A DNA stretch of 32,000 nucleotides. Source: Candidatus Saccharimonadota bacterium. GTDB lineage: Bacteria; Patescibacteriota; Gracilibacteria; BD1-5; UBA2023. The stretch lies in contig BAAFHK010000003.1 of the NCBI GenBank assembly GCA_042852035.1, forward strand, positions 210,001-242,000, written 5' to 3'. The notes beneath the pieces are model-generated. The model was given only the letters and a program-made list of their open reading frames with translations, did no database searches and was not told where the DNA came from. Of this stretch, positions 9,063 through 31,286 are shown piece by piece. Every line of letters starts with the position of its first letter. Within the stretch, counting starts at the first letter, position 1. The position numbers were made by a program, and so were the translations under genes.

Positions 9063-9650
9063 ATGTTTAATTTTTGAGATTCTAGAAATCTGGATTCTAC
9101 CTCATGAAATAAGAGTCCTCTTTCCAAGGGCAATAAGCTCCCTGCTGCATCATTTCTTATTGGTGCGATGGCAACATCAGCTCTTGTTCTTATAGCTGAA
9201 CCACAAAAAAAATGGAATCTCTCCTTTTATGATTGCGTACTTGATACAGGATCTCCTTCATCGCAAGTTGTTAAATTACTCTATCCAGAGGCAATATGCC
9301 TTGCTCCTTTAAAGCAAAATCCACCTGCTCTCGATCCAAAAACAAATTTAGAGGTAGAATCTCTGAGTTCATCTATTTCAGATGGTATGACTGAGATTCG
9401 ACAGAGAATGATTTTTCATAAAATTTTGACAGATACTCAAGCAGATCATTGGATTGATATAATGTCTCTACGAGAAGAGAGTCCTTATAAAACAGAATGA
9501 GAATTAGAATACTATCATACAAAAATACCAAAAGTAACAGTCGTATATAATAAAATCTCAAAACACGTGAAACTTTATATTTTCGATCCAACAGTATCAT
9601 GATGAATGGATGTTGAAGTCTCAAAAGCCGTTTTTACAGAAAAAAAATAA
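9063..9650 (+). CDS. Hypothetical protein (195 aa)
   Basis: ATG 9063 in frame with track ORF 9168..9500. Reads through TGA to TAA 9648-9650 and is followed by a terminator hairpin. Confidence 0.5.
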
Positions 9651-9672
9651 CCTCTATAGAGGTTATTTTTTT
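9647..9672. terminator. Bidirectional intrinsic terminator
   Basis: AACCTC-TATA-GAGGTT hairpin flanked by an A-run and a T-run, between the convergent 9063..9650 gene and rplT. Confidence 0.6.
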
Positions 9673-9678
9673 ATCAAC

Positions 9679-10023
9679 TTATTTTACAAAATCAACAACT
9701 TTTGCGAACACTTCAGGGTTTGAAATAGCAAGGTTTGAGAGAACTTTTCTATTGAGCCCAACACGTTTTACATAAAGAGCATGGATAAATCCAGAATAGT
9801 TCATTCCCATTGGTCGAACCGCATTGTTAATACGAACATTCCAAAGTCTTCGGAAGTTTCTTTTCTTTGCCTTGCGTCCAATATAGGCATTTTGTCCAGC
9901 CTTCATAAGAGCTCCACGTGCACGTGAGTACACATTTCCATTCATTCGGCGGTATCCTTTTACCTTTGCAAGAAGATTTTTATGTCTTTTGTGGGTCATT
10001 ACACCACGTTTCACGCGAGTCAT
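9679..10023 (-). CDS. rplT: 50S ribosomal protein L20
   Basis: Intact ORF beginning MTRVKRGVMTHKRHKNLLAKVKGYRRMN, canonical L20. Confidence 0.95.
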   Translation of the reverse strand: MTRVKRGVMTHKRHKNLLAKVKGYRRMNGNVYSRARGALMKAGQNAYIGRKAKKRNFRRLWNVRINNAVRPMGMNYSGFIHALYVKRVGLNRKVLSNLAISNPEVFAKVVDFVK

Positions 10024-14293: not shown

Positions 14294-14330
14294 AAAATCC
14301 CCTCGAATATTCGAGGGGATTTTGATTTTT
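14294..14330 (+). terminator. Intrinsic terminator after rpsA
   Basis: ATCCCCTCGA-ATAT-TCGAGGGGAT perfect 10-bp stem followed by TTTTGATTTTT. Confidence 0.65.
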
Positions 14331-16704: not shown

Positions 16705-16854
16705 TACCAACATTTTGGTCAATGAAATTTCTATAATTTTCTCCTACCATAGAAACCTATTAGGTAAAGCAAAGTTAAGAAATGGAAAATGACATAAGAA
16801 ATAAGATGAATTGTAAAAACAGAGGAATAAACAAAAAATCTCCAACCTTTTGAT

Positions 16855-16873
16855 AGGGGGGAGATTTTTTTGA
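16855..16873 (+). repeat. Direct repeat copy 1 (attL-like): AGGGGGGAGATTTTTTTGA
   Basis: Identical 19-mer to 26684-26702. Also forms the descending arm of a hairpin with AAAAATCTCC (16834-16843). Confidence 0.7.
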
Positions 16874-18750: not shown

Positions 18751-20742
18751 ATGGCTCTAAATCAACAAGAAAAAGAATTTCTATTGCAACTTATTAATGA
18801 ATGAAAAGATATACCAGAAGATTTCAAATATAAACTTTTTCCTACTCTACAAAAGGAGTATGAGTTAAGTTATGCAGGTAAGATGAGAAAAGAAGATCTT
18901 TTTGCTAATGAAGATGGTGTTTTTCCTGTTCCACTTCAAGTAGAAAAAACTTTTAATTGAAATGAATATAAATGATTTGAAGATGGATGGAAAAATATGA
19001 TCGTGTTTTGAGATAATTTACAATTCTTAAAAACAATTTATGAGAATAAAGATGATACCATTAAAGATAAGATTAAAGGAAAAGTGCAATTAATATATAT
19101 TGACCCACCATTTGCAACTACTGATGAATTCCAAAATAAAGAATGAGCTAAGGCTTATAATGATAAAAAAATAGGGTCTGAATTTATTGAATTTCTTAGA
19201 AGAAGACTACTGATTGCAAGAGAAATACTTAGTGATAAGGGGGTAATATATATTCATCTGGATTGGAAAATGTCTCAATATATCAAAATAGTTTTAGATG
19301 AAATATTTTGAAAAAATAATTTTAGAAATGAAATTGCTTGGTGTTATAGTTGACCTTGAAAAAGCAGTAAATCTTTTATAAGAAAACATGATACAATTTT
19401 ATTTTATGCAAAAAATTGGAAAGAAAGCACTTTTAATATACAAAGAATAGAGCATAAATCATGAATTCATAATAGAGGAGCATATCTATGAAAGGAAAAT
19501 GAAGATGCATGAGAACTTGTTGAAAAACTTGAAGAAGAATGAAAGAGATTAGAAGATTGGTGGACTGATATATATACTGCAGACAGAAAAAGAAATGAAC
19601 TAATCTGATACCCTACACAGAAACCAGAAGCACTATTAGAGAGAATAATTATGGCAAGTTCTAATGAGTGAGACATAGTTATGGATTTTTTTGGAGGCTC
19701 ATGAACTACAATGGCTGTTGCAGAGAAATTATGAAGAAAATGGATTAGTTGTGATTTATGAAAACTAGCCTATTTTACAGAACAAAAAAGAATACTTACT
19801 ATTCAAGATAGTAAATCCCTATTAGATGAAAAGAAAAACTATTGAAAAAAAGCAAGGAGTTTTATGACCTGCACTCTATGAATGTATAACTTGAAGGATA
19901 CTCTTGATTTAGAATGGAGTAAGTATAAAGAATTTGTAGGAACACTTTTTGATATAGATATTAAAACTACTACTATTTGATGAGTTGAATTTGATGGGAA
20001 AAAGTGATCTGCTCCTGTAAAAATGTGGGACTATAATAAGCATAAGGATGCAAATGTTGATGAAACATATATTAATACACTTCATCAGTCTATTAAGGCA
20101 AAAACAAGTAGAGTTTATATTGTTGCCCCTGCAAATAATATAGGTTTTATTAGTGATTATTTTGAAATAGATGGAACAAGATACTATTTCTTAAAAATAC
20201 CTTATCAGGTTATAAAAGAACTTCATAAAAAATCATTTCATAAAATTAGACAACCACAAAGTAAGAAGAATGTAAATGATCTTGAAGAAGCAATAGGCTT
20301 TCACTTTATCAAGAAACCAGAAGTAAAATCAAAAATAGTTGTTTCTAATGATGAAATATGTGTAGAAATTTCAGAGTTTAGAAGTCAGTATTATAAAGAT
20401 GAAGAATGAAAAATATTAGAAAATTTTGAAACTCTATCTGCTGTTTTTATAGATGCTAATTTTAATGGAGATCAGTTTATAATGACAGATGTAAAATTTG
20501 CTGATGATTTATTGTCAAAGAAGAAAAAAGGTAAGAAGGTAGATGAAGATGAAGAGATTGATGCAGAATTAGATGAAGATGAAGAAGGGGTAAGTAATGA
20601 AGAGATTAGAGCAGAATTAAAAGAAACAGCAAATAAAGGATTAAAAATAATACTTCCAAGAAAAAAAGTAGGAGATAAAGTAATGCTTATCTATACAGAT
20701 ATTTATGGGAATGATTTTACAGAAATACTAACAGTCAATTAA
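18751..20742 (+). CDS. mod: Type III restriction-modification methyltransferase (Mod), beta-class N6A/N4C MTase
   Basis: Motif IV LIYIDPPF precedes motif I DFFGGS-G(TGA 19702-19704)-TTMAVAEKLGRKWISCDL. I count 23 in-frame TGA. In frame with track ORFs 20023..20409 and 20482..20742. Acidic C-terminal insert. Confidence 0.85.
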
Positions 20743-20743
20743 T

Positions 20744-23344
20744 ATGCAAGATATACATATTTTTAGAAATCAAGACCTAGTCTTAAAAGTTAATCCTACT
20801 TATGATCCTACAAAATTAAGATTAAAAGAATGGGATAGTTTTTTAGATAAACTTTGTTGAGATAGAGATTATCAGAAAGAAGCAATAAAGCAGGTGATTA
20901 TCTTTATGGTGTGAGGAAAATATAAAAAAATAGAGGATTTAGCAGAGGAGAATTATAAAAATAATCCTGAACTACAAATAAAATATTCATCTCTTGAAGA
21001 TTATTTACATAAATTACAAATTCAGGGAAAGTTATTTGCTAATATTGATCTTGCCACCTGAACTGGAAAATCTTATGTAATGTATGGTATAGCACAAATA
21101 ATGTTGGGATTATGAGTTGTAGACAGAGTATTGCTACTTTGTCCCTCTTTGACTATTGAAGCAGGGTTAAAAGAAAAATTTGAAAGTTTAAGTTGAAACC
21201 AGCAACTAAAAGATGCTATACCTGAAAACTCCATAATAAAAAATCCAAGAATTATTGATGCAAACCAAACCATTAAAAGCGGAGATATATGTATAGAAAA
21301 CATACATGCAGTATATGAAAAAACAGGATCTTCTATACAAGATAGTCTAAAATGAACTGGCAGTAATGTATTAGTTCTTAATGATGAATCACACCATATT
21401 TTTAATAAATCTTCTGATAAAGATGTTAAAAAATGGAAGGAGTTTTTAACTAATGATGATTTTTGATTTCAGTATATAGTTTGATTTACAGGAACAGCAT
21501 ATATTGATAATAACTATTTCAATGATGTTATATATAGATTTTCATTAAGAGAAGCAATAGAAAATAAGTTTGTGAAAAGTATTGAGTATGTAGCAAAAGA
21601 TGATAGTATTTGAAAATGAGAAAAATTTCAAAAGATCCATCAAAACCATATTGATAATATAGATAGATACCCAAAGATTAAACCTCTTACTATTCTGATT
21701 ACAGCAGATATTGAAAAAGCAGAAGAATTAAAAGATGATTTAGTTGAGTTCTTGATGCAAAAAGAGAATAAAAGTAAAGAACAGATAGAAGAAAAGGTTT
21801 TAATTATCACTTCTCATAAAGATCATAAAAGTAATTTACTAAAACTAAAAACAGTTGATAGCAAAGAAAATAAAACTGAATGGATTATATCAGTTTCTAT
21901 GTTAAGTGAAGGTTGGGATGTAAAAAATGTTTTTCAAATTGTTCCTTGGGAAGATAGGGCATTTAATTCAAAACTACTTATATCACAAGTTTTATGAAGA
22001 GGTTTAAGAGTGCCACCAGAATATGAATTACCACAACCAAAAGTGATAGTATTTAATCATGATGCTTGGAGTAGAAATATCATAGAACTTGTAAATGAAG
22101 TGTTGGAGATTGAAAAAAGAGTGGTAAGTGAGGTGCTTGATAGTTGAGACAGAAGTAAATATAATTTTGAAGTATTTAATCTAGATTATTCAAAAGAAGA
22201 AGTGGAAGTTGAATTAGAAACAAAAGAAAGTGTGATGAATTTTAGTAGAATATTTAATGAATGAATTAAATTGGAAGCACAGGTTGAGGAAATAGAAAAA
22301 TGAACTGTATTTGAGAGTTTAGGTTGAACTCAATCCCAGAGAGAAAAAAATTACTTGATTGAATATGCAACAACTTCTGTTGATGATATAGTAGATAAAA
22401 TCTATTCTGAATTTGAAATGAGGGATTGGGAATGAAAAGTGCTACAACTTAATCAAGAACAATATACTCAAAATAATCTACCTCCTAGAACAGTAATTAA
22501 GGAAATTATTATAAAATCAATGCAAAAACTCTGAATTAAGGGGGAAAGATTGATAGAAAAAAATAAAAATCATATCCTTTCAGGATTTTGAACTTTATTA
22601 AGAAAAAAGAATAAAACAGTTATTACAAAACTTAAAGTCAATGATCCTATACTAATAAAAACCATAGAAGTAGATAGAGAAAGTTTAGGAATTTGAAATT
22701 TTAGAAAAGATTGCACTGTATTTCTGACAACAAACTATTTACAGGAAGTAAATGAAGAACAAGGTGCTATTCTTTCTGAATTAAGTGAAGATGAAAGCCT
22801 CCCTAGAAGTGCAATCAAAGAGCAGAATGAGTATTTATTTAAAACACCCCTTAATGTTATCTTAACAAAATGAGAACCTGAAAGAAAATTTATTGAAGGT
22901 TTATGTAAGCAAGATGTTGTTGAAAAAATTAATTGTTGGATTAAATCGAGAGATAGAGGCTTTTATGGTATAGAGTATAGTTTGAGATATTGAGATAAAT
23001 GAAGTAATACAAGGAGATATACAAATAAAAAATTTAACCCTGATTTCTTTATTCAAATACAAAAAGAAGATATAAAATATACTCTTGTTATTGAAACAAA
23101 GATGGATTGAGATGATAGTGAAGAGAACAAAGCAAAATATAAATATGCATTAGAACATTTTAATAGATTAAATGAAGAACTAGAACAGAGAGGAATAAAT
23201 GAAAAATACATTTTTCATTTTCTTAGCCCCCAATGATATTCAACATTTTTTGAATATTTAAAAGATGGAAGAATATTGGAAGGACAAGAAAAGTATAGGT
23301 GTGCTCTTGAAAATAGCCTAGAAAATAATGAAGAGGAGCTATAA
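20744..23344 (+). CDS. res: Type III restriction enzyme Res subunit (SF2 helicase plus PD-(D/E)xK nuclease)
   Basis: ATG 1 nt after the mod stop (TAATATG). DLAT-G(TGA 21059-21061)-TGKS, LNDESHH, GFTGTA, SVSMLSEGWDVKNV, QVL-G-RGLR. C-terminal NPDFFIQ...LVIETK nuclease motif. 866 aa. Confidence 0.85.
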
Positions 23345-24091
23345 TAAGGAAATTGCATACTTCCCTGTAAAGTTTTCTTTTAGGATTTCTTCATATTTTT
23401 CTTTTTTATAATCCCAACAAGACACAATCAAAATAAGGTTCTTTTCTCTAAACAGAGGAAAGAACTTTTTATTATTCTTTCTAGTATTCATATCTTCATA
23501 TCCTAGTACTTTCTGATGAAACTGTTTGTATGAGTTCATATTTTCTAATTCAAGACAATAGGCTGTATTTCAGATACTTAATAGTAAATCTGGTATCATA
23601 ACAAAATCTAGATATTCATATTTAGTTTCAGGATTTTTTAACTCTGTTTGAAGTATTTTTTGGATTGTTTTTGATCCTGTAAAATATTCTGCTTTCAATA
23701 CAAAATCCTTATTTTTATTTCTAATCTTTCATAGGAAATAAACAAAGAGATCTCATAATAGTAGTTGATGATTATATAGGGTATAACTGGTATTATAAAT
23801 TGATGGTTCATATTTTATTCAGGTCTCATAATAAATCCTGTTTAGGACTATTTCAGTAGTATTTAGCATATAAATACTATACTGGCTTATACTTTTATAT
23901 TCTTGTTTCAGTTCTTTTATAAATCAATGCTTTTTCAGGAGGAGTAGCCTTATATTAAAGGTTTTATGTTGGGTTTCTGGACTAACAATATTTTTTAGAT
24001 TTCTAGAACTACAAAATCATAATTCATTTAAAGTATGAAATATTAACAAGTCCCTAGGTGTTAAAACTATATTTTCTCTGGTTTTATTCAT
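23339..24091 (-). CDS. Replication-relaxation-family-like protein (wHTH plus PD-(D/E)xK-like core), 250 aa
   Basis: Translated codon by codon from ATG 24089-24091. N-terminus LTPRDLLIFHTLNELGFCSSRNL; later HQLLLGD and MIPDLLLSIGNTAYCLELEN. Stop overlaps the res stop by 6 nt. Confidence 0.5.
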
Positions 24092-25538
24092 ACTTTTCTC
24101 AATTAGATTTTAAAAGTTTCTGTATATTTTGATCTCAAATATTTAAAGACTGTGTTAATATGCTTAAAGTTCAGTGGTTAATAGTGTCAAAAACAGAATA
24201 GAACTCTCATCTTTTGAGATTAACAATATCTTTTTCACTTATTGCAAACTTTTGCTCTAATCAAGAATTGGTAATAGGAACAAATAACTCTGCCTGTTCT
24301 GGTGGTAATGCAAAAATAAGTGAATAACTCAAATTATTTAGTAAATCCTGTAATTCTCTACTGATACTCTGGAATATAAACAACATATTTATTTTTTTCT
24401 TCCTGTGTTCATTTAGTATTTTCTCTAAAATATCTAACATATGATTTTTACTACCTTGGAGTTCGAGAAAACTTTGAAATTCATCACAAGTATAATAATG
24501 GCTTCATAAGTTGGGATTATTATGATTTTTACCTGCTCCAATGTGATATAAAATGTTTGTAAGGAAAGATATTACTACTCTTCTTTCTTGGGTATTGAAT
24601 ACTGAAAAATCAAATAGATATACTTCTGTTTGTTTCTTTTCTCAACTCATATAGTGTTCTATGTCCAATGTAAGTTCTTTATAACTTTTTCAATATCCAA
24701 AAGTATCTCCTAATCAAAAACTAAAATCTTTCAATTTTGTTAAACTGGTAATATGAGACTGTTTATCTACTTGAAGATCTTTAAGAAAAGTTTTTAACTC
24801 TTGGTCTACTCCATTTGCAAGTTGGAGTATGTCAGAATGAGTAGAAGAAAATAGTTTTTTTCTATCTTCATCAAGATAAGTAGGAAGTTTCTGGCATCTA
24901 CTGGTATAATCTAACAAATCATATAAATCCCTATAAGATAATAAAACATTGTCAGGATCTCTATGGTATCTTTCTATATTGATAACTATAAAACTTCTTA
25001 TAAGTCCCTCTAATACTTTTGTGTTTGAGGGTCAGAAAGCAGAGTAGTTAAATACTCATTTCAAAGAGGAGATATTATAGTTTACCCATTTATTTAAGTC
25101 TGTAATATCTTCTACAAGAGACAAAGCAAATAGTGGATTAAAGAAAAATGTTTTATCCATATAAAACCCTCTATATTTTTTATTATTTTCAATAGTTTCA
25201 TTGGAAAATCTAAAAATATCTCAATATCTGCTTAATTTTGGATTATCTATTAAGTATTCTCATAAAAGATTTAACAAAGGATTTATAAATGAGTTATGGG
25301 GATCAATACAAACAAAAGTATCTCCATACTTTGTATTATCTGGTTGAGACTGTTGTAAAATTGAAGATTTTATAGTAGAAAATAGGGTAGATACTAAACT
25401 GTATGTTTTGCCACTTCAAGATTTTCAGAATATTCATCAATGACCGGATTTTAAAATATTGTAGTTGAGTGATAAAAGTGCTTTATCTTCTAGTATATGG
25501 GACTTCTGGACTGTCCCTATGGGTATAATGTGAGACAT
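24084..25538 (-). CDS. HerA/FtsK-superfamily (T4CP-like) P-loop ATPase, 484 aa
   Basis: PIGTVQKSHILEDKALLSLNYNILKSGH-G-GIF-G(TGA 25425-25427)-KS-G(TGA 25416-25418)-SGKT Walker A; HYYTCDEFQSF Walker B. No N-terminal TM. Stop overlaps the downstream start (ATGAATAA). Confidence 0.6.
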
Positions 25539-25572: not shown

Positions 25573-26475
25573 TTAATAAAAATTAAGATTTTTGATTAAA
25601 TTACATTCAAAAAATCATGAACTAGGTAAAATTATGGCTTTATCCTGAATAGTTCCTGAAATATGGGAAAGTGGTAAAAATAGCCCTTGTGATAATAGTG
25701 CTTCCGGTTGAAGTAGTCTTTTATACTGTGGTATATAATCTAAAAATGTTTTATATTCAGTTATTGAGTAGGAATTATACAGAGATGCATATAGTCCAAG
25801 GTTCTTATACAAAATACTTTTAATATCCCTATATTGCAGGTTATGTGATATATTAAATTGAAATAGAAACATGTTCTGGCTTTCAGTAAAAGAACTTATA
25901 AAACTCTCCTGCTCCTTTTCATTCATATTTTTACTTTTCTGGGTATATAAATAATCCTTTACTAATGATGAATAAGATCCCTTTGAGAATGAAAAGAGTA
26001 TTTTAATAACTTCATTTTCATTAATGAAGGGCAATATTTCCTGTATGAATGAACTTTTTATAGATGAGGAGGTTGTAAAGTCTCAGGCTCATAAAGCACC
26101 AAGTTTCTTAATTTGTAATACAGAGTGGTTATTAAGTCAGATTTTATAAATATGCTTGTATGATTGTCTTAATATGAAATCCCTTTTTATGTCTATTGAA
26201 AAACTGATCTTTCAGTTGTAGAGTTTGATAAAAAACTGCATTATATAATTAATACCTTCAAGACTATTAGAAAATATATATTCATCTATAAAAACTCTAT
26301 TTTTAGCCTGATAGCAATGTGTTTCCATTCAAAACCATAGATGAGGGAGGTAGAAAGCATTTAAATCATTCTTGATGGAATTTATAAGGTTTTCTCAAAA
26401 GTTGGTTCAAGGATTGATTTTTAAATAGAAAAGTTGATGCTCTGGAAAATATGGAATATTTGAAATTTGAAACAT
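25573..26475 (-). CDS. Hypothetical protein (300 aa), first gene of the minus-strand trio
   Basis: ATG 26473-26475. Track ORF 25615..26034 extended both ways through TGA; TAA 25573-25575. No motif recognised. Confidence 0.5.
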
Positions 26476-26560
26476 GGAGATCAAAATTAATAAAACAAAT
26501 AATCATTATATTAATTTTTAGAAACTATGGATTATGTCATTGTATATTCTTCATTACCTA

Positions 26561-26688
26561 CCCCTGTAATTTTTAGACTTTCTTTTATTTAAAAGGAAAA
26601 GAGCCTAATAGGTCATAACTTAAAACTTATGACCTATTAGGCTCTAACCACACCTTATTTATAGTGGAAAGTCTAAAAATTACAGGGG
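26561..26688. repeat. Nested perfect palindrome (22-bp outer arms, 19-bp inner hairpin)
   Basis: Outer arms CCCCTGTAATTTTTAGACTTTC (26561-26582) / GAAAGTCTAAAAATTACAGGGG (26667-26688). Inner arms AGAGCCTAATAGGTCATAA (26600-26618) / TTATGACCTATTAGGCTCT (26627-26645), 8-nt loop. Confidence 0.9.
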
Positions 26689-26702
26689 GGAGATTTTTTT
26701 GA
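26684..26702 (+). repeat. Direct repeat copy 2 (attP-like): AGGGGGGAGATTTTTTTGA
   Basis: Identical to 16855-16873. Flanked by the inverted half-sites GTCTAAAAA (26671-26679) and TTTTTTGAC (26695-26703). Confidence 0.7.
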
Positions 26703-26748
26703 CTAAAGGAAGAAAAAGATATACTTGATATTAATTAATGTAATTATT

Positions 26749-27783
26749 ATGACTAGATTAATAGATGGGGTAAGGGAGGCAGGATTGGAACAAGGAACAG
26801 ATGGAAGAGTAAGCAAAGAAAAAGTAAATGAGATGTTAGAGTTTTTTAGTAAAGCATTTTGAGAAGATGCTATATTATCTGTATGAGGATTTGATAAGAA
26901 ATTAGTTGATGCTGTTAAAGAAAATGACAATATCATTAAAAGATTATTACAATCAGAATTAGAAAGAAATTGTAGATATGAAATGAATATAAGCACTTCT
27001 AATGTTAAAGAAGTTATTGAGTGGATTGATATTATCAATAACAACCAAGAAAAAAATGGTTGAATTATCTGAAAACAATTTAGATTTACTGCTAGTATTA
27101 TTGAGGCATTACTTGCATTTTTAAAACTCTATCAATCTGCAAATATTGTTAATCAAAATGAAAATGGAAGAGAAAAAGAAATAATTCTGGTTTTGATTGT
27201 TAAGACTTTAAGGTATGCAATAGGTTCTGGAAAGAATGGTTTTACAGGAATAAAGTCTGATTTATTTTCAAAGTTTGAAGAAGTATTGCATAGGATTTTT
27301 GATGATGCTGATATTGAAACAGATGAGAAAACACAACTTATTTTTCAGTGAAGTGCAGGATCTTATGGAAATGCACCAAAAAATAATGTATGGATAGAAG
27401 ATTTTATTAGATCTGTTTCAGGAGATGGCTGAAATGTATTAGTTCATTTTTTAAAAAAATCACAACTCAATAAAACAGAGTTATTATTATATACTGATAA
27501 AAATATTGTAGAAGTTATCATTGAATATTGAAATAACTTTATATTTATTCTTACAAATAGTAGAGAATGGAAAAAGGAGGCAGTTTTACTTTATAAAACT
27601 ACTGAAAATATCTTGCAGGATCAAGTTAATAGATGATGAATTGAAAAAATTATTAATCTATTTCTTCAATGAGGTTTACCAGTTGAAAAGAATGATAATC
27701 TAAAAGTTATTAGTAGAAATGATATTTTAGATAGAAAGTTTATTGCAGAAGAAGACTTTGGTAAAATTATTCAAATTTCTTAA
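26749..27783 (+). CDS. Hypothetical protein (344 aa)
   Basis: I checked every codon 26749-27783: no TAA/TAG, 11 TGA. No recognisable motif. Confidence 0.55.
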
Positions 27784-27822: not shown

Positions 27823-29376
27823 ATGGACTTACAAAAAAAGATTACAGACACTCTGGATTTACAAATAAATGCTGATGATATTTTATATTCAAATATTGAT
27901 AAGTTAGGCTTTTATTTTAAGTCATCAGAACTATTCTGATATTTTAAATCAAAAGATCCATTTCCAGATAAAGAAGAAGTTATTACTATCTGAGATACAA
28001 AGTATAATTTTCTAGTTTATCTTTCAGATAAAGACTTGAATGGATATGATAAAAAACTATGACTAAAAATAGAATATAGAGGGGAATATTATGAGGTTAT
28101 AGATATTCTATTTAACATAAAAGAAAGTAGATATTTATGTGTTTTTCATGGAAAGTTGTGGAGGTTTTCAACTCTAAAAGAGTTTGGATTTTCAAATCAA
28201 ATATTAATTGAATTTATATCAAAAAACTTTACAGAGATACAATTAAGAGAAATTCATATTTGTTTAGATGTAGAAGAGAAAGAAGATTATCTAACTAGGA
28301 TTAATGAATATATTAAAAACTATGTTCCAAAGGTATTCAATAAAGATACCTACAATTTTAGTAGTTGAAATTTATGAAGACAAATTGAAATAGGTTTGCC
28401 AGACAGAAAGAATAATAAAGAGTTTTTTTATAAAATTTATAATAAGACTTTACAGGCTAGGAAGATGTGAATTGATAAAATATATGTTGATTATTGTTTA
28501 TCTACTGAAAAGAATGTGTTTAGATATGAAATAGAGTTTAGACAAAATATAGCAAAAACCATTAAATTAGAAGACTTAAAGTTAATCTGACCTATACTAG
28601 AAAATAAGAAACAGATGCATGCAGGGAAGTATATTTTGAATGAATGGATTTGTAGAACTCTTATTTCATATTTTGTAGACAAACAAAAATTTGATTTTGT
28701 GTTTTGACAACTCAATATTGAGAATGTGAAACTTAAAAGGTCTGAAAATAGAGCCACAGGTTCAGTTGGCAAAAGAATAAGTGATTTAAACCTGATAGGA
28801 CAGCTAAAATCTTTAAGAACCCAAGCAAAGAATATAGAAAGCACTACTTGAATACCCTTGAAGAACAACTTTGATAAGTTAGATGAAATTATAGGAGAAA
28901 GTCAGGATTACAGATATTATATCACTATTTATAGAGGAATTTTCAGGACAATAAAAAACCATTATGAAGAAAATGAGGTAAAGGATTTTGATGAACTTTC
29001 TGAATTGATAAAGGGGGCTACTACCTATGCACTCAATTTTCTAAAAACTGATTATAACAACTTCTTTAAGATTATAAGATGATGAATTAATAGGAATGCT
29101 GATAGTGTAATAGAGTTTCTTGCAGATAATGAAAACTCTTTAAGTGAATTGATTTATTTTTATTACTTTTGAAGATTAAGAGAATGAATATTGTTTGATT
29201 TCCTAGATGTTCTAAAAGAATGAAATATGCCATTATTTCAAAAATATTTTGAAGATGATAAGAAGTTAAGAGAGAGTATTGCAAATAAACAAAAATCAAT
29301 AAGTATGCTGAATGATGATAGTAATTTATCCTTTGATGATTACTCAAAGTCAGTTTTTAATATATTTTATAAATAA
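27823..29376 (+). CDS. Rep_trans-like rolling-circle initiator / MOB_T-type relaxase candidate (517 aa)
   Basis: I checked every codon. LREIHICLDV, QIEIGLPDRKNNKEFFYKIYNK and VFRYEIEFRQN resemble the R.D...D, ..YdK and R.E.e.R blocks of the replication initiation factor (Rep_trans) family as I recall them. Confidence 0.5.
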
Positions 29377-29387
29377 TCTCATTTTCT

Positions 29388-31286
29388 ATGGAACAATCAA
29401 AGAAAAAAAGAGTAGGAATATACATTAGAGTTTCTACATTAGACCAAGCAAAAAAAGGAACTTCTCTTGAAGATCAAGAGCAGAGTTTAAAATTATATAT
29501 ACAAGCAAACTCAATAGATGGTTGGGAACTTGCTGAAAATGGAGTTTACAGAGATGATGGAATTAGTGGTTTTAAGGGTATAGCAGATAGACCTGAATTT
29601 GATAGATTAATGAATGATGTGAATGACAAAAGATTAGATATTGTTTTGGTATATAGAATAGATAGACTAGCAAGAAATACAGAATTACTGCTGAATACTG
29701 TTAAGAAATTTAAAGTAAAGTGAGTGCAGTTTGTGAGTATGAGTGATAGAATTGATACAGATACAGCAAGTGGGAAGATGCTACTTGCTATACTAGGTGC
29801 TATGGCTGAAATGGAAAGGAACTTGATTTATGAAAGGACATATGCTTGAAAGATTAGAAAATTAAGTATGGGTTATGCTTCCTGATGATGATTTGATTTA
29901 CCACTTGGTTATAAAAAATGAGAAGATGGGAAGATAATGATTGATGAGCCATATAAAGAGTTAATCCAAGAGATTTTTGATCTTTGTACTGGGGAGAAGC
30001 ACTTTACACCAAAAGAAATTGCTGCTGAATTATCATCAAGGGAAGAAACTACTTGGTGGGATAAAAAAATGGCAAAACTTAAAAAGAAACAAGTTAAAAC
30101 AGGTGTCTGGAATGCAGATACAGTAAGAAAGATACTTCTCAATCCTATTTATAAATGAGTATACTATTTTTGAAAAACAAGAAAAGTGCTTGCAGATAAT
30201 GAAGAAGATGAAATTACTGTAAAAGTTCCAGAAGAAGAATGGCTACCAGTTCCTATGCCTTGTGGTTGAATTATTACAGAGAAACAATGGGAAGATGCTA
30301 AATATCAAATTCAAAAGATTAATAAAATTAATAGAGGAAGATGAAGAAGCCATATCTTTACAGGTCTAATTAAGTGTGGGTTTGACTGAATGAGTTATAT
30401 TTGTTATAGGTCAAAACAGAAGAAAGTTGAATACTTTTATTATAGATGTGGTGGAACAAATGCGTCTAAAAATGAGAATAAAAGAAAAGATACTGATGTA
30501 GGAAATATTGATATGCCTTTGTGTAATAATCTACAAGTTCCTGAATTAGAACTTTATAACTACTGTATTGATATTATTACAAGGTTCATAGAAGAACCAG
30601 AAGCACTATATAAACAAAAAATAGGGAATGATGAGGAGTTTAAGAAACAAAAAAAGATCCTTGAAACAAAAATAGAGGAAGATAAGTTAAAAATTAAAGA
30701 ACTTGAAGTTACTATAACATCATTGTATTATCAGAAATCAAAAGATAAAATAAATGCTGATAACATACAAAATGTGCTTGATACATACACACAAGATAAA
30801 GAAGCAGCATTGAAAAGACTTGAAAATAATGAAAAAGATTTGCTAAATTCAGAAAATCAGTTAAATTCTGGCAAGCAAATGAAACAGTTTGCTGAGACTT
30901 ACAAAGATAAACTTGCAAATCTTACAGAGGAACAAGGAACAGAACTTATTAGGTTGTTAGTTGATAGGATTGAAGTTAAAGGAACGTTAATTACAGTATT
31001 CTTTAAGTTCAAACCACACCCAGAGAGTTTTACACATAGTCAAACTCTAAAAAAAAACTCTAAAAAAATAGAGGGGGGAGATTTTACAACAAGTTCTACA
31101 CCAAACAAGCAGTCTCTCCAACATATATGCAGCCGTAGTTCAGTTGGATTAGAACGCCTCCCTGCGAAGGAGGAGGTCACAGGTTCGAGCCCTGCTGGTT
31201 GCACCATTTCAACTCATAGAAGACTCTTCAGTACCATTTTTTGGCTCTGGGGAGCTTTTTTTAGGTTCGTACTCATCTATACTTAA
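29388..31286 (+). CDS. Large serine recombinase; ORF has no stop before the element end and reads through tRNA-Arg
   Basis: VGIYIRVSTLDQ...YRDDGISG...RPEFDRL...VLVYRIDRLARN catalytic domain; recombinase domain; HIFTGLIKCGFD-G-MSYICY...YFYYRCGG zinc ribbon; coiled coil. In-frame stops 29388-31283 are all TGA; first TAA is at 31284-31286. The functional C-terminus is probably near 31030-31090. Confidence 0.8.
31072..31085 (+). repeat. Direct repeat copy 3 (attR-like): AGGGGGGAGATTTT
   Basis: 14-nt identity with copies 1 and 2. Left flank CTCTAAAAAAA resembles the copy-2 left flank GTCTAAAAA. Lies inside the recombinase ORF tail. Confidence 0.65.
31129..31206 (+). tRNA. tRNA-Arg (anticodon GCG), CCA encoded
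   Basis: Anticodon arm CCTCC-CTGCGAA-GGAGG (perfect), D arm GTTC/GAAC, T-loop TTCGAGC. The acceptor stem has two G-U pairs and the T stem has one A-C mismatch in my fold. Confidence 0.75.

What the first reader, a model, noticed from the sequence alone, without database searches (positions are those of the whole stretch)
26561..26688. 128-nt nested perfect palindrome in the divergent intergenic region, abutting the central att-like repeat
A 19-bp perfect hairpin (26600-26645, 8-nt loop) is nested inside 22-bp perfect outer arms (26561-26582 / 26667-26688). The right outer arm is itself the left half-site plus the first Gs of repeat copy 2, so an inverted copy of that arm lies about 105 bp away. 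Perfect arms of this length in about 27% GC non-coding DNA imply selection. It is not a terminator, because both flanking genes read away from it. Candidate roles are oriT or nick site for the transfer module, double-strand origin for the Rep_trans-like protein, recombinase accessory site, or a structured RNA.
Basis: seen in the sequence. Interest (0 to 1): 0.65.

Follow-up and report, generated by a model that had tools for sequence, protein, structure and literature searches.

The report
Conserved palindromic origin in Gracilibacteria element
The 128-base nested palindrome is real and under selection, and it is most likely the DNA site where a nicking enzyme and a DNA-pumping ATPase start transfer or replication of a defence-gene-carrying mobile element in Gracilibacteria, a poorly known group of tiny bacteria with an altered genetic code.

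Summary
The 22-bp outer arms and the 19-bp inner hairpin are perfect, and they are the two longest perfect inverted repeats in the window (shuffle maximum 15 bp).

The window comes from a bacterium that reads TGA as glycine (code 25). It carries a 27% GC, ~14-kb integrated element between two tRNA genes.

Relatives from 14 other contigs give eight further sequence variants of the palindrome. Each lies at the same syntenic position. In all of them both stems stay complementary while their sequences change, with no wobble pairs in the inner stem. The outer arms are unrelated in sequence between variants. An asymmetric motif, CTCT(A/T)ACCACA, and a ~46-nt hairpin length are universal.

The palindrome always accompanies three leftward genes:
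- p300, function unknown;
- p484, a HerA/FtsK-like ATPase;
- p250, a winged-helix plus PD-(D/E)XK protein linked by profile search to Replic_Relax, the MOB_C relaxase family.

It does not track the Rep_trans-like protein, the serine recombinase type, or the GGGGGGAGATTTT repeat. All three are absent or replaced in distant relatives.

Best reading (about 0.5): it is an origin of transfer or replication for the p300–p484–p250 module. The Rep_trans-origin and att-accessory options are not.

The parts
26561..26582 (.). Left outer arm of the nested palindrome (22 bp, perfect)
   Evidence: The sequence differs in relatives but always stays complementary to the right arm.
26583..26599 (+). Left spacer TTTTATTTAAAAGGAAA. 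It is conserved in sequence (TTTAAAGGAAAA) and partly pairs with the right spacer.
   Evidence: (I1).
26600..26645 (.). Inner hairpin: 19-bp perfect stem with the 8-nt loop CTTAAAAC. The stem base GAG../..CTC is universal and the loop is not conserved.
   Evidence: (5 of 19 pairs changed on both sides, 100% paired, no wobble).
26642..26654 (+). Asymmetric conserved motif CTCT-AACCACACC: the last 4 nt of the inner stem plus an unpaired bulge. It is present as CTCT(A/T)ACCACA in every variant, always on the strand opposite to p300. It is the candidate recognition or nick region.
   Evidence: The nick position is inference only.
26655..26666 (+). Rest of the right spacer, which partly pairs with the left spacer
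26667..26688 (.). Right outer arm (22 bp, perfect)
26685..26703 (+). Copy 2 of the repeat GGGGGGAGATTTT, here extended to GGGGGGAGATTTTTTTGAC. It is invariant in the close relatives and absent from the distant ones.
26539..26547 (+). Conserved ATTGTATAT between the p300 start and the palindrome. It contains a -10-like TATATT and is also present in the distant relatives L013-L016 and L018; L017 has only CTTGTATAG.
   Evidence: Its function was not tested.
25573..26475 (-). p300: the most conserved backbone protein, with no recognisable family. It is the first gene of the leftward operon.
24084..25538 (-). p484: a HerA/FtsK-superfamily P-loop ATPase (DUF87) and candidate DNA translocase or coupling protein
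23339..24091 (-). p250: winged-helix plus PD-(D/E)XK protein, a divergent Replic_Relax (MOB_C relaxase family) member and the candidate nicking enzyme
26749..27783 (+). p344: unknown function. It is the first gene of the rightward operon and is present only in the close relatives.
27823..29376 (+). p517: N-terminal Rep_trans-like fold plus a helical C-terminal domain
   Evidence: The motif comparison uses PMC6499999.
29388..31122 (+). Large serine recombinase. The ORF has no stop before the element end and reads on into tRNA-Arg, up to 31286.
16856..16868 (+). Copy 1 of GGGGGGAGATTTT, at the left edge of the low-GC island
31073..31085 (+). Copy 3 of GGGGGGAGATTTT, inside the 3' tail of the recombinase gene
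16839..16846 (+). TCTCCAAC, the left copy of an 8-bp direct repeat and the alternative candidate junction of the element
   Evidence: This is inference.
31115..31122 (+). TCTCCAAC, the right copy. Homologous elements in different flanking contexts diverge from one another immediately after TCTCTCCA.
18751..23344 (+). Cargo: Type III restriction-modification system (Mod at 18751-20742, Res at 20744-23344). Other defence systems take this position in relatives.

Best explanation
The nested palindrome is the cis-acting origin of the conserved p300-p484-p250 module of a ~14-kb integrative element of Gracilibacteria. This is an origin of transfer, possibly doubling as an origin of rolling-circle-type replication.

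Proposed mechanism (inferred):
- After the serine recombinase excises the element, negative supercoiling or strand separation lets the region extrude as a long hairpin or cruciform.
- This exposes the conserved, asymmetric CTCT(A/T)ACCACA bulge at the 3' base of the ~46-nt inner hairpin.
- p250 (winged-helix plus PD-(D/E)XK, Replic_Relax/MOB_C-like) recognises the structure and nicks one strand there.
- p484 (a HerA/FtsK-type ATPase) acts as the motor or coupling protein for the processed DNA.
- The same fold in the displaced or transferred single strand would help termination, re-ligation and second-strand priming.

Shown:
- the structure, its conservation and its covariation;
- its invariable linkage and fixed orientation relative to the three genes;
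- the family assignments of p250 and p484.

Inferred:
- extrusion of the hairpin;
- which protein binds it;
- the nick position;
- whether the outcome is transfer or replication.
For: (1) The arms are perfect and far beyond chance.

(2) There are nine sequence variants in total (this window plus 14 contigs that span the region). All keep an inner hairpin and complementary outer arms. In the five distinct close variants the 19-pair inner stem is 100% paired, 5 pairs changed on both sides and none on one side only. No shuffle out of 500 reached the observed covariation score. The outer arms have unrelated sequences in the window, L001/L003, L004, L011, L013, L016, L017 and L018, yet remain complementary.

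(3) An asymmetric motif, CTCT(A/T)ACCACA, and a constant span of 51-52 nt from GAG to ACCACA are present in every variant. The signature occurs once per locus and always on the strand opposite to p300.

(4) The palindrome co-occurs with p300-p484-p250 at 47-58% protein identity in L013-L018. There the genes on the other side are an unrelated 199-271-aa (L013-L016, L018) or 107-aa (L017) protein and a recombinase only 24-26% identical to this one, with no p344 and no p517.

(5) p250: the AlphaFold model has pLDDT 90, with an N-terminal winged helix and an alpha/beta C-terminal domain that gives weak nuclease matches. D168, E181 and E183 are invariant and Y178 is nearly invariant. The L016 homologue matches PF13814 Replic_Relax over the full profile (22.7 bits, cut-off 25.3). 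The family profile retrieves P0092, which matches PF13814 well above threshold (90.6 bits), and P0093, which falls just below it (25.0 bits against a cut-off of 25.3). PF13814 is the MOB_C relaxase domain (PMC5357655). MOB_C TraX has an N-terminal winged helix, a DEE motif and an essential tyrosine (PMC6736028 and PMC12857230).

(6) p484 is a DUF87/HerA P-loop ATPase with faint FtsK_SpoIIIE, TraG-D_C, EccC and DotL similarity.

(7) Location: the site lies in the intergenic region directly upstream of the operon that encodes the candidate relaxase and ATPase. Many oriTs lie in this position and contain inverted repeats (PMC5587640).
Against: - There is no experimental nick, and no MOB_C nic consensus was available to compare.
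- p250 itself is below the Pfam threshold. The link to Replic_Relax is transitive.
- Replic_Relax members are also annotated as replication proteins. p250 weakly matches a phage 'replication initiation protein' PHROG.
- Neither the element nor the window encodes a type IV secretion system, and none is known for this host group, so 'transfer' needs an unknown route.
- No series of short direct repeats, like the TraX binding site, was found next to the palindrome.
- A promoter-like site at 26519-26548 on the + strand, and a terminator-like reading of the inner hairpin on the - strand, leave room for an RNA-level or regulatory role.
- The function of p300 is unknown.
Confidence: 0.5

Rival explanations
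1. It is the double-strand origin (or MOB_T-type oriT) nicked by the Rep_trans-like p517, which is encoded 1.1 kb downstream. This would resemble pT181 IR-II or the ICEBs1/ICESt3 oriT.
For: - The N-terminal domain of p517 matches the RepDE Rep_trans initiator structures 4cwc/4cwe (Foldseek E 8e-6, probability 1.0).
- p517 carries residues in the order and spacing of Rep_trans motifs N', I, III (YxKxxE/Q) and IV.
- A CTAA lies in the inner stem (GCCTAATAGG) and at its 3' base (CTCTAACC).
- In MOB_T elements the oriT lies in the intergenic region upstream of the relaxase.
Against: - The palindrome is retained in L013-L018, which have no p517 or p344 homologue.
- The defining CT'AA sits in the loop of a GC-rich hairpin in Rep_trans and MOB_T systems. 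Here the loop lacks it and is not conserved.
- The stem CTAA becomes CTAT in L018.
- Hairpin variants do not follow the p517 clades.
Confidence: 0.12
2. It is a transcriptional control element of the divergent operons. It could be an operator for a dimeric DNA-binding protein, for example the winged helix of p250. It could also be an RNA leader, attenuator or small RNA transcribed across the palindrome.
For: - It lies between divergent operons.
- A conserved -10-like TATATT (26543-26548) sits just upstream on the + strand. A promoter-like hit at 26519-26548 would start transcription about 5 nt before the outer stem.
- In the close relatives the outer stem is followed by GGAGATTTTTTT.
- On the - strand the inner hairpin is followed by TTTCCTTTT, which is terminator-like. 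A similar (G/T)TTCC(C)TTT follows it in L013 and L016.
Against: - There are no wobble pairs in 95 inner-stem cells, and perfect two-strand symmetry. This is unusual for an RNA element.
- A nested palindrome of 128-170 bp with arms that change freely is far larger than an operator.
- The T-run after the outer stem is absent in distant relatives.
- The number of promoter-like hits is no higher than in shuffles: 3 found against 2.8 expected.
- There is no Rfam match above noise.
Confidence: 0.17
3. It is an accessory or alternative recombination site of the large serine recombinase. The outer arms would be extra half-sites next to an internal attP-like core (copy 2 of GGGGGGAGATTTT). The island would be a tandem accretion of two elements.
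For: - There are three direct copies of the 13-nt core, at both island edges and next to the palindrome, with 0.01 expected by chance.
- Copies 2 and 3 share a 23-nt stretch at 91% identity (D20).
- Copies 1 and 2 share the right flank TTTGA.
- Copy 2 has dyad symmetry: GTCTAAAAA..TTTTTTGAC (direct reading).
- The recombinase, p517 and p344 show mosaic phylogenies, which suggests module exchange.
Against: - The same backbone order, with the palindrome in the middle, is found in all close relatives. It therefore behaves as one element.
- The arms do not track the recombinase. L002 (type 1 recombinase, 96% identical to the window's) and L003 (type 2, 52%) have identical right arms and inner hairpins (L002's contig starts at the inner hairpin, so its left arm is unknown), whereas the window and L002 share the recombinase but differ in arms.
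- L011 has the arm displaced 8 nt from the core.
- L013-L018 keep the palindrome without any such repeat and with an unrelated recombinase.
- Homologous elements diverge from each other about 35 nt beyond copy 3, after TCTCTCCA. The crossover is therefore probably not in the 13-nt core.
Confidence: 0.08
4. It is a selfish palindromic insertion (MITE-like) or an assembly or replication artefact with no function for the element.
For: The 22-bp perfect terminal inverted repeats and the 128-bp size are MITE-like. The L002 contig breaks exactly at the hairpin.
Against: - There is a single copy per locus, always at the same syntenic position and in the same orientation.
- The arm sequence was absent from viral contigs, and a core pattern (ACCACA, a 20-50-nt gap, then GGGGGGAGATTTTTTTGA) was absent from the genome and metagenome collections.
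- It was assembled independently in many samples.
- It is conserved with compensatory change at 47-58% protein divergence.
Confidence: 0.03

Closest known systems
MOB_C-type transfer origins (pAD1 oriT2 with relaxase TraX; CloDF13 MobC)
   Same: - The candidate nicking protein is a winged-helix plus PD-(D/E)XK protein of the Replic_Relax/MOB_C family, with D..E.E acidic residues and a nearby conserved tyrosine (PMC6736028, PMC12857230).
- The origin is an intergenic site next to the relaxase and ATPase genes, and it is built around inverted repeats (PMC5587640).
- From my memory of Francia & Clewell 2002 (pmid 12123451, not held here), pAD1 oriT2 has a large inverted repeat of about 140 bp that contains the nick.
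   Different: - p250 is below the Pfam threshold.
- The partner ATPase is DUF87/HerA-like rather than a clear VirD4/TraG coupling protein.
- No array of short direct repeats (the TraX binding site, 70-120 bp from nic) was found.
- The element encodes no type IV secretion system.
- The host is a code-25 candidate-phyla-radiation bacterium, not Bacillota or Proteobacteria.
- The palindrome is nested in two to three layers.
Streptococcal integrative and mobilizable elements, class 8 (serine integrase + MobC/PF13814 relaxase + coupling protein), Coluzzi et al. 2017 (PMC5357655)
   Same: It is a compact integrative element with a serine recombinase, a PF13814-type protein and a coupling-type ATPase. 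There is modular exchange of integration modules and accretion at att sites.
   Different: - The gene order differs: here the operons diverge around the palindrome.
- There is an extra conserved p300.
- Some lineages have an extra Rep_trans-like gene.
- The cargo is defence systems.
- No sequence similarity is detectable with standard thresholds.
Rep_trans double-strand origins and MOB_T oriT (pT181 IR-II/IR-III; ICEBs1, ICESt3)
   Same: - A Rep_trans-fold protein is encoded in this element.
- A hairpin lies in an intergenic region upstream.
- The binding and nick determinants could be separated, as in ICESt3.
   Different: - The conserved CT'AA-in-loop signature is absent.
- The hairpin is 19 bp and AT-rich, not 7 bp and GC-rich.
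- The palindrome occurs without the Rep_trans gene in distant relatives.
Actinomycete integrative and conjugative elements (pSAM2 type: integrase, rolling-circle Rep, FtsK-like TraB acting on a cis locus clt). This comparison rests on my own knowledge.
   Same: The gene set combines a site-specific recombinase, a rolling-circle-type initiator and an FtsK/HerA-superfamily ATPase, without a type IV secretion system. A cis site lies near the ATPase gene.
   Different: - TraB recognises 8-bp direct repeats in double-stranded DNA and needs no nickase.
- Here the cis site is a long palindrome, and a nuclease-like protein is conserved alongside the ATPase.
- No TraB similarity was tested or found.

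Membership tests
Replic_Relax / MOB_C relaxase family (for p250, the presumed partner of the palindrome) | Match to PF13814 | tested here: inconclusive
   The window protein gives no hit. The L016 homologue scores 22.7 bits against a cut-off of 25.3, over profile positions 2-189 of 191. The family profile retrieves P0092 and P0093, which match PF13814 at 90.6 and 25.0 bits.
Replic_Relax / MOB_C relaxase family (for p250, the presumed partner of the palindrome) | N-terminal winged helix-turn-helix | tested here: met
   The AlphaFold model has pLDDT 90. Its N-terminal ~85-120 residues match the winged-helix regulators PerR, SqrR and MarR with probability 0.99-1.0.
Replic_Relax / MOB_C relaxase family (for p250, the presumed partner of the palindrome) | PD-(D/E)XK core with a D/E/E metal-binding triad and a conserved tyrosine | tested here: met
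   IPD168 and E181-L-E183 are invariant and Y178 is at least 90% conserved in 16 homologues. Weak structural matches include Can2 and the nickase Nt.BspD6I. The assignment of these residues to the triad is inference.
Replic_Relax / MOB_C relaxase family (for p250, the presumed partner of the palindrome) | Site- and strand-specific nicking at oriT | not testable with these tools
   This needs biochemistry.
MOB_C-type oriT (pAD1 oriT2) | Large inverted repeat next to the relaxase and coupling-protein genes | tested here: met
   A 128-170-nt nested palindrome lies directly upstream of the p300-p484-p250 operon in all 15 sequences that cover the region.
MOB_C-type oriT (pAD1 oriT2) | Array of about 5 short direct repeats, 70-120 bp from nic, bound by the relaxase (PMC12857230) | tested here: not met
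   No direct-repeat family lies within the intergenic region. Only scattered AT-rich short repeats were seen by eye.
Rep_trans dso / MOB_T oriT | Conserved CT'AA in the loop of a short GC-rich hairpin (PMC9371924) | tested here: not met
   The loops are CTTAAAAC, CTTATCAC, CTTTTTAT, CTTTTAAT, TTTT, ATTC or 16-nt loops. The CTAA in the stem becomes CTAT in L018.
Rep_trans dso / MOB_T oriT | Co-occurrence of the site with a Rep_trans/PF02486 gene | tested here: not met
   A Rep_trans-like p517 is present in the window group. It is absent from L013-L018, which keep the palindrome.
Large serine recombinase att site | The site co-varies with the recombinase and is found at the element junctions | tested here: not met
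   The arms are independent of recombinase type. The palindrome is internal to the element. The adjacent 13-nt repeat is at the island edges only in this lineage.
Intrinsic terminator | GC-rich hairpin followed immediately by a U-tract, downstream of a gene on that strand | tested here: inconclusive
   On the - strand the inner hairpin plus TTTCCTTTTA is picked up by the scan. No gene ends upstream of it on that strand.
Any Rfam RNA family | Score at or above the gathering threshold | tested here: not met
   The only hits are tRNAs elsewhere in the window. In the region itself there are only sub-threshold generic long-hairpin (miRNA precursor) matches.
MITE / repeated palindromic element | Multiple dispersed copies | tested here: not met
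   There is one copy per locus, and no match in the three public collections: the arm sequence in viral contigs and the core pattern in the genome and metagenome collections.

The most novel reading that the evidence does not exclude
The palindrome, p300, the HerA/FtsK-type ATPase p484 and the PD-(D/E)XK protein p250 together form a self-contained DNA processing and export (or hairpin-primed replication) system that works without a type IV secretion system. It would be the first conjugation-like or inter-cell DNA transfer apparatus described for Gracilibacteria and other candidate-phyla-radiation bacteria, and it would spread defence systems among them. The nested, self-homogenising hairpin would be its only cis requirement.
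Probability: 0.15. Interest if true: 0.8.

Novelty: new variant of a known kind. Interest (0 to 1): 0.55.

Why it matters
Mobile elements of candidate-phyla-radiation bacteria are almost uncharacterised, and most of their proteins match no known family.

This work defines a family of ~14-kb integrative elements in code-25 Gracilibacteria. They shuttle different defence systems, including Type III and Type II restriction-modification, OLD-family nucleases and Hachiman. It also pinpoints the family's one conserved non-coding element and its likely protein partners.

If the palindrome is the origin, two things follow:
- It gives a concrete, testable handle on how DNA moves between these ultra-small, host-dependent bacteria: a ~50-nt hairpin plus the CTCT(A/T)ACCACA motif, the protein p250 and the ATPase p484.
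- It extends the little-studied restriction-endonuclease-like (MOB_C) relaxase family to a new phylum and a new origin architecture.

Tried and rejected
- **Table 11 and table 4 translations.** Table 11 fragments every gene. Table 4 gave Trp where the conserved motifs need Gly (GSWTT, SWSGKT). Code 25 was adopted.
- **Two tandem elements.** I first read the three GGGGGGAGATTTT copies as attL / internal attP / attR of two tandem elements. I dropped this as the main reading after finding the same backbone, with the palindrome in the middle, in all close relatives, and after seeing that loci diverge 35 nt beyond copy 3.
- **Public collection scans.** The outer-arm sequence found nothing in viral contigs. 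A core pattern (ACCACA, a 20-50-nt gap, then GGGGGGAGATTTTTTTGA) found nothing in the genome or metagenome collections. Protein-based scans of these collections (p300 on genomes, p517 on metagenomes and viral contigs) found only the one ACD_71 contig already known.
- **Profile searches.** Searches of p300, p344 and p517 against PDB sequences, Pfam and PHROGs gave nothing useful.
- **Protein/DNA co-variation.** Testing hairpin variants against p517, p344 or recombinase clades was uninformative, because the elements are mosaic.
- **Analogous repeat in distant relatives.** A search for an att-like repeat next to the palindrome in L013 and L016 found none.
- **Literature.** The Francia 2013 paper on TraX was not held.
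- **Promoter prediction.** In this AT-rich region it is no better than chance.
Full report
**Observation.** The feature is exactly as described. Positions 26561-26582 and 26667-26688 are perfectly complementary over 22 bp. Positions 26600-26618 and 26627-26645 are perfectly complementary over 19 bp around an 8-nt loop. The arm sequence occurs nowhere else in the window, with 0.00 matches expected. These are the two longest perfect inverted repeats in the 32 kb, and the longest arm seen in 200 shuffles of the island was 15 bp. As single-stranded DNA the region folds at -42.5 kcal/mol, with z = -12.5 against shuffles. The spacers also partly pair (I1). The whole 128 nt is therefore one long hairpin, interrupted by an asymmetric internal loop.

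**Context.**
- Under table 11 all genes are fragmented.
- In-frame TGA falls where glycine is required: DFFGGS-G-TT in the methyltransferase and GKS-G-SGKT in the ATPase. The organism therefore uses code 25.
- Homologues are named Candidatus Gracilibacteria, Candidatus Altimarinota or 'uncultured bacterium (gcode 4)'.
- A 27% GC island (about 16.85-31.1 kb) lies in 36-39% GC host DNA, between tRNA-Cys and tRNA-Arg.
- With code 25 the island encodes, in order:

| Gene | Strand | Assignment |
|---|---|---|
| Two small proteins | - | unknown |
| p103 | + | unknown |
| Mod + Res | + | Type III restriction-modification system |
| p250 | - | winged-helix + PD-(D/E)XK (see below) |
| p484 | - | DUF87/HerA ATPase |
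| p300 | - | unknown |
| palindrome | | |
| p344 | + | unknown |
| p517 | + | Rep_trans-like (see below) |
| recombinase | + | large serine recombinase |

**Related elements.**
- Homologues of p517, p300 and p250 led to 20 contigs.
- The close relatives are L001-L008 and L011. Those whose contigs reach that far have the same backbone order, with different cargo: MvaI/BcnI restriction-modification plus an OLD-type nuclease in L003.
- The intergenic region is highly conserved, except inside the stems. There both arms change together.
- On an alignment of the five distinct inner hairpins, all 95 cells pair. Five of 19 pairs changed on both sides and none on one side only. No shuffle out of 500 reached the covariation score.
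- The outer arms are CCCCTGTAATTTTTAGACTTTC in the window, CCCCTGCAATTTTTGT(T)TCTTCTC in L003, CCCCTGCAACTTT..ACCTTCCC in L004 and CCCTACTTCCCCTTATATA in L011. Each is complementary to its own partner.

**Distant relatives.**
- These are L013-L018, with p300, p484 and p250 at 47-58% identity. They still have, at the same place and in the same orientation, an inner perfect hairpin of 14-20 bp and one or two further nested stems of unrelated sequence.
- Universal features are:
  - a stem base of GAG.../...CTC;
  - a 3' flank of T(A/T)ACCACA, unpaired and with no symmetric partner;
  - a constant 51-52 nt from GAG to ACCACA, whatever the stem and loop lengths.
- An upstream ATTGTATAT is present in every variant except L017, which has CTTGTATAG.
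- The signature occurs exactly once in each of the 15 sequences that cover the region. It is always on the strand opposite to p300, and never elsewhere in 215 kb of held sequence.

**Which genes does it belong to?**
- In L013-L018 the genes across the intergenic region are an unrelated protein (199-271 aa in L013-L016 and L018; 107 aa in L017) and a recombinase only 24-26% identical to the window's. In L017 the recombinase is far away. There is no p344 or p517 homologue, and no GGGGGGAGATTTT.
- Among the close relatives the recombinase comes in two types that are 52% identical. p517 falls into three clades. The hairpin variants follow none of these groupings.
- The only constant partners are p300, p484 and p250.

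**The proteins.**
- *p250.* It folds with high confidence (pLDDT 90) into an N-terminal winged helix and an alpha/beta domain. It keeps IPD168, E181 and E183 (all invariant) and Y178 (at least 90% conserved).
  - One homologue matches PF13814 Replic_Relax end to end, just under threshold.
  - The family profile, searched against 1.8 billion proteins, reaches P0092, which matches PF13814 well above threshold, and P0093, just below it.
  - A weak tblastn hit falls on a Priestia plasmid gene annotated 'replication-relaxation family protein'.
  - PF13814 is the domain of the MOB_C relaxases. These are restriction-endonuclease-like, use a DEE motif, and in TraX carry an N-terminal winged helix and an essential tyrosine.
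- *p484.* It is a DUF87/HerA P-loop ATPase with faint FtsK, TraG-D_C, EccC and DotL similarity.
- *p517.* Its N-terminal domain matches the Rep_trans initiator RepDE (E 8e-6). It has the expected acidic and YxK motifs.
- *p300 and p344.* They match nothing.

**Mechanism proposed.**
- The conserved unit is a palindrome, a nuclease-type DNA-binding protein, a translocase-type ATPase and p300. That is the make-up of a DNA-processing (mobilisation or replication) module with its origin.
- I propose that the region extrudes as a hairpin. This presents the conserved single-stranded CTCT(A/T)ACCACA at the foot of a fixed-length hairpin. p250 then nicks there, and p484 drives the DNA.
- Exclusively Watson-Crick compensation, identical on both strands, fits a DNA-level structure. 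It also fits DNA that is regularly single-stranded, where hairpin-templated repair would homogenise the arms.
- These steps are inferred. Only the structure, its conservation, its linkage and the family assignments are shown.

**The 'att-like repeat'.**
- The three copies of GGGGGGAGATTTT are real.
- The recombinase reading frame and the similarity between elements both continue about 35 nt past copy 3. They end after TCTCTCCA, where the window, L001, L002, L003 and L008 diverge into different flanks.
- TCTCCAAC also lies 9 nt left of copy 1.
- The junction is therefore more likely at TCTCCAAC (16839-16846 and 31115-31122). Two repeat copies would then flank the attP of the circular form, and the third would sit beside the palindrome.
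- What the repeat does is unresolved. It is not needed for the palindrome, because distant relatives lack it.

**Rivals.**
- A Rep_trans origin is disfavoured by its distribution and by the missing CT'AA loop signature.
- A recombinase accessory site is disfavoured because there is no co-variation with the recombinase.
- A MITE is excluded by copy number.
- A regulatory or RNA role cannot be excluded. There is a conserved -10-like box upstream and a terminator-like reading on the minus strand. However, promoter-like hits equal the shuffle expectation, there are no wobble pairs, and Rfam gives nothing.

**Comparison and novelty.**
- It works most like a MOB_C-type oriT and like the serine-integrase/MobC class of streptococcal integrative mobilizable elements. 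It also has an AICE-like gene set.
- Membership is only partly met:
  - p250 is a sub-threshold Replic_Relax member;
  - the direct-repeat binding array of pAD1 was not found;
  - the ATPase is not a clear VirD4;
  - there is no secretion system.
- I rate it a new variant of a known kind, in an unexplored host group.

Noticed in passing
whole window; e.g. 18751-20742, 24084-25538: The host and the element read TGA as glycine (code 25). The GSGTT and GSGKT motifs are only restored with TGA = Gly. Under table 11 almost every gene is fragmented.
   Followed up: yes
window 18751-23344; L003 1691-5521; L018 8767-11780; L013 13081-18893: The cargo slot between p103 and p250 holds a different system in each relative. 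The window and L001 have Type III restriction-modification. L003 has MvaI/BcnI-type restriction-modification plus an OLD/AAA_15 nuclease. L018 has Hachiman (HamA + DEAD helicase). L013 has SNase and HNH-WYL genes, which are not an assigned defence system.
   Followed up: partly
window 29388-31286 and tRNA-Arg 31129-31206: The serine recombinase ORF has no stop codon inside the element. In the integrated state it reads through the junction and the tRNA-Arg gene. Its C-terminal tail (..PN...LQ) is conserved even in recombinases that are 49-52% identical, and it ends exactly where the loci diverge.
   Followed up: partly
window 16856-16868, 26685-26697, 31073-31085; 16839-16846 and 31115-31122: There are two different direct-repeat candidates for the element junctions: the 13-nt GGGGGGAGATTTT (3 copies) and the 8-nt TCTCCAAC (2 copies). 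They are arranged X-Y ... Y ... Y-X. Which one is the crossover site is unresolved.
   Followed up: partly
L001-L011 versus the window: There is strong mosaicism. p300, p484 and p250 are 71-90% identical across the close relatives. p344 (52-77%, apart from the near-identical pair L004/L008 at 93%), p517 (three clades) and the recombinase (two types, 52% identical) are reassorted independently of one another.
   Followed up: partly
L002 1-46: This Logan contig begins exactly at the first base of the inner hairpin. This is probably a de Bruijn-graph break at the perfect palindrome rather than a biological end.
   Followed up: no
L009 1-376, L010 1-349 (ACD_71 contig): The most distant p344-p517-recombinase relative has no palindrome in the 350-376 nt available upstream. 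Instead it has an odd purine-rich AGT/AAT repeat tract (TAGTAGTAGTAGAGTAGTAGTAATAATAG...).
   Followed up: no
window 9641-9672 and 14294-14323: There are two spacer-less perfect palindromes (16+16 and 15+15 nt) in the host part of the window. The first lies just downstream of a ribosomal protein L20-like ORF (9679-10023, -). They are possibly terminators.
   Followed up: no
window 23339-24091 and 24084-25538: There are weak PHROG matches. p250 matches a 'replication initiation protein' family (E 0.004) and p484 matches a 'terminase large subunit' family (E 6.5e-4). These hint that the module could serve replication or packaging rather than conjugative transfer.
   Followed up: no
L016 6536-7028: In the Gracilibacteria genome GCA_018061975 the related element lies next to tRNA-like sequences with a perfect 21-nt duplication of a tRNA 3' end (6577 and 6737). 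This is a likely att duplication for its unrelated recombinase.
   Followed up: no
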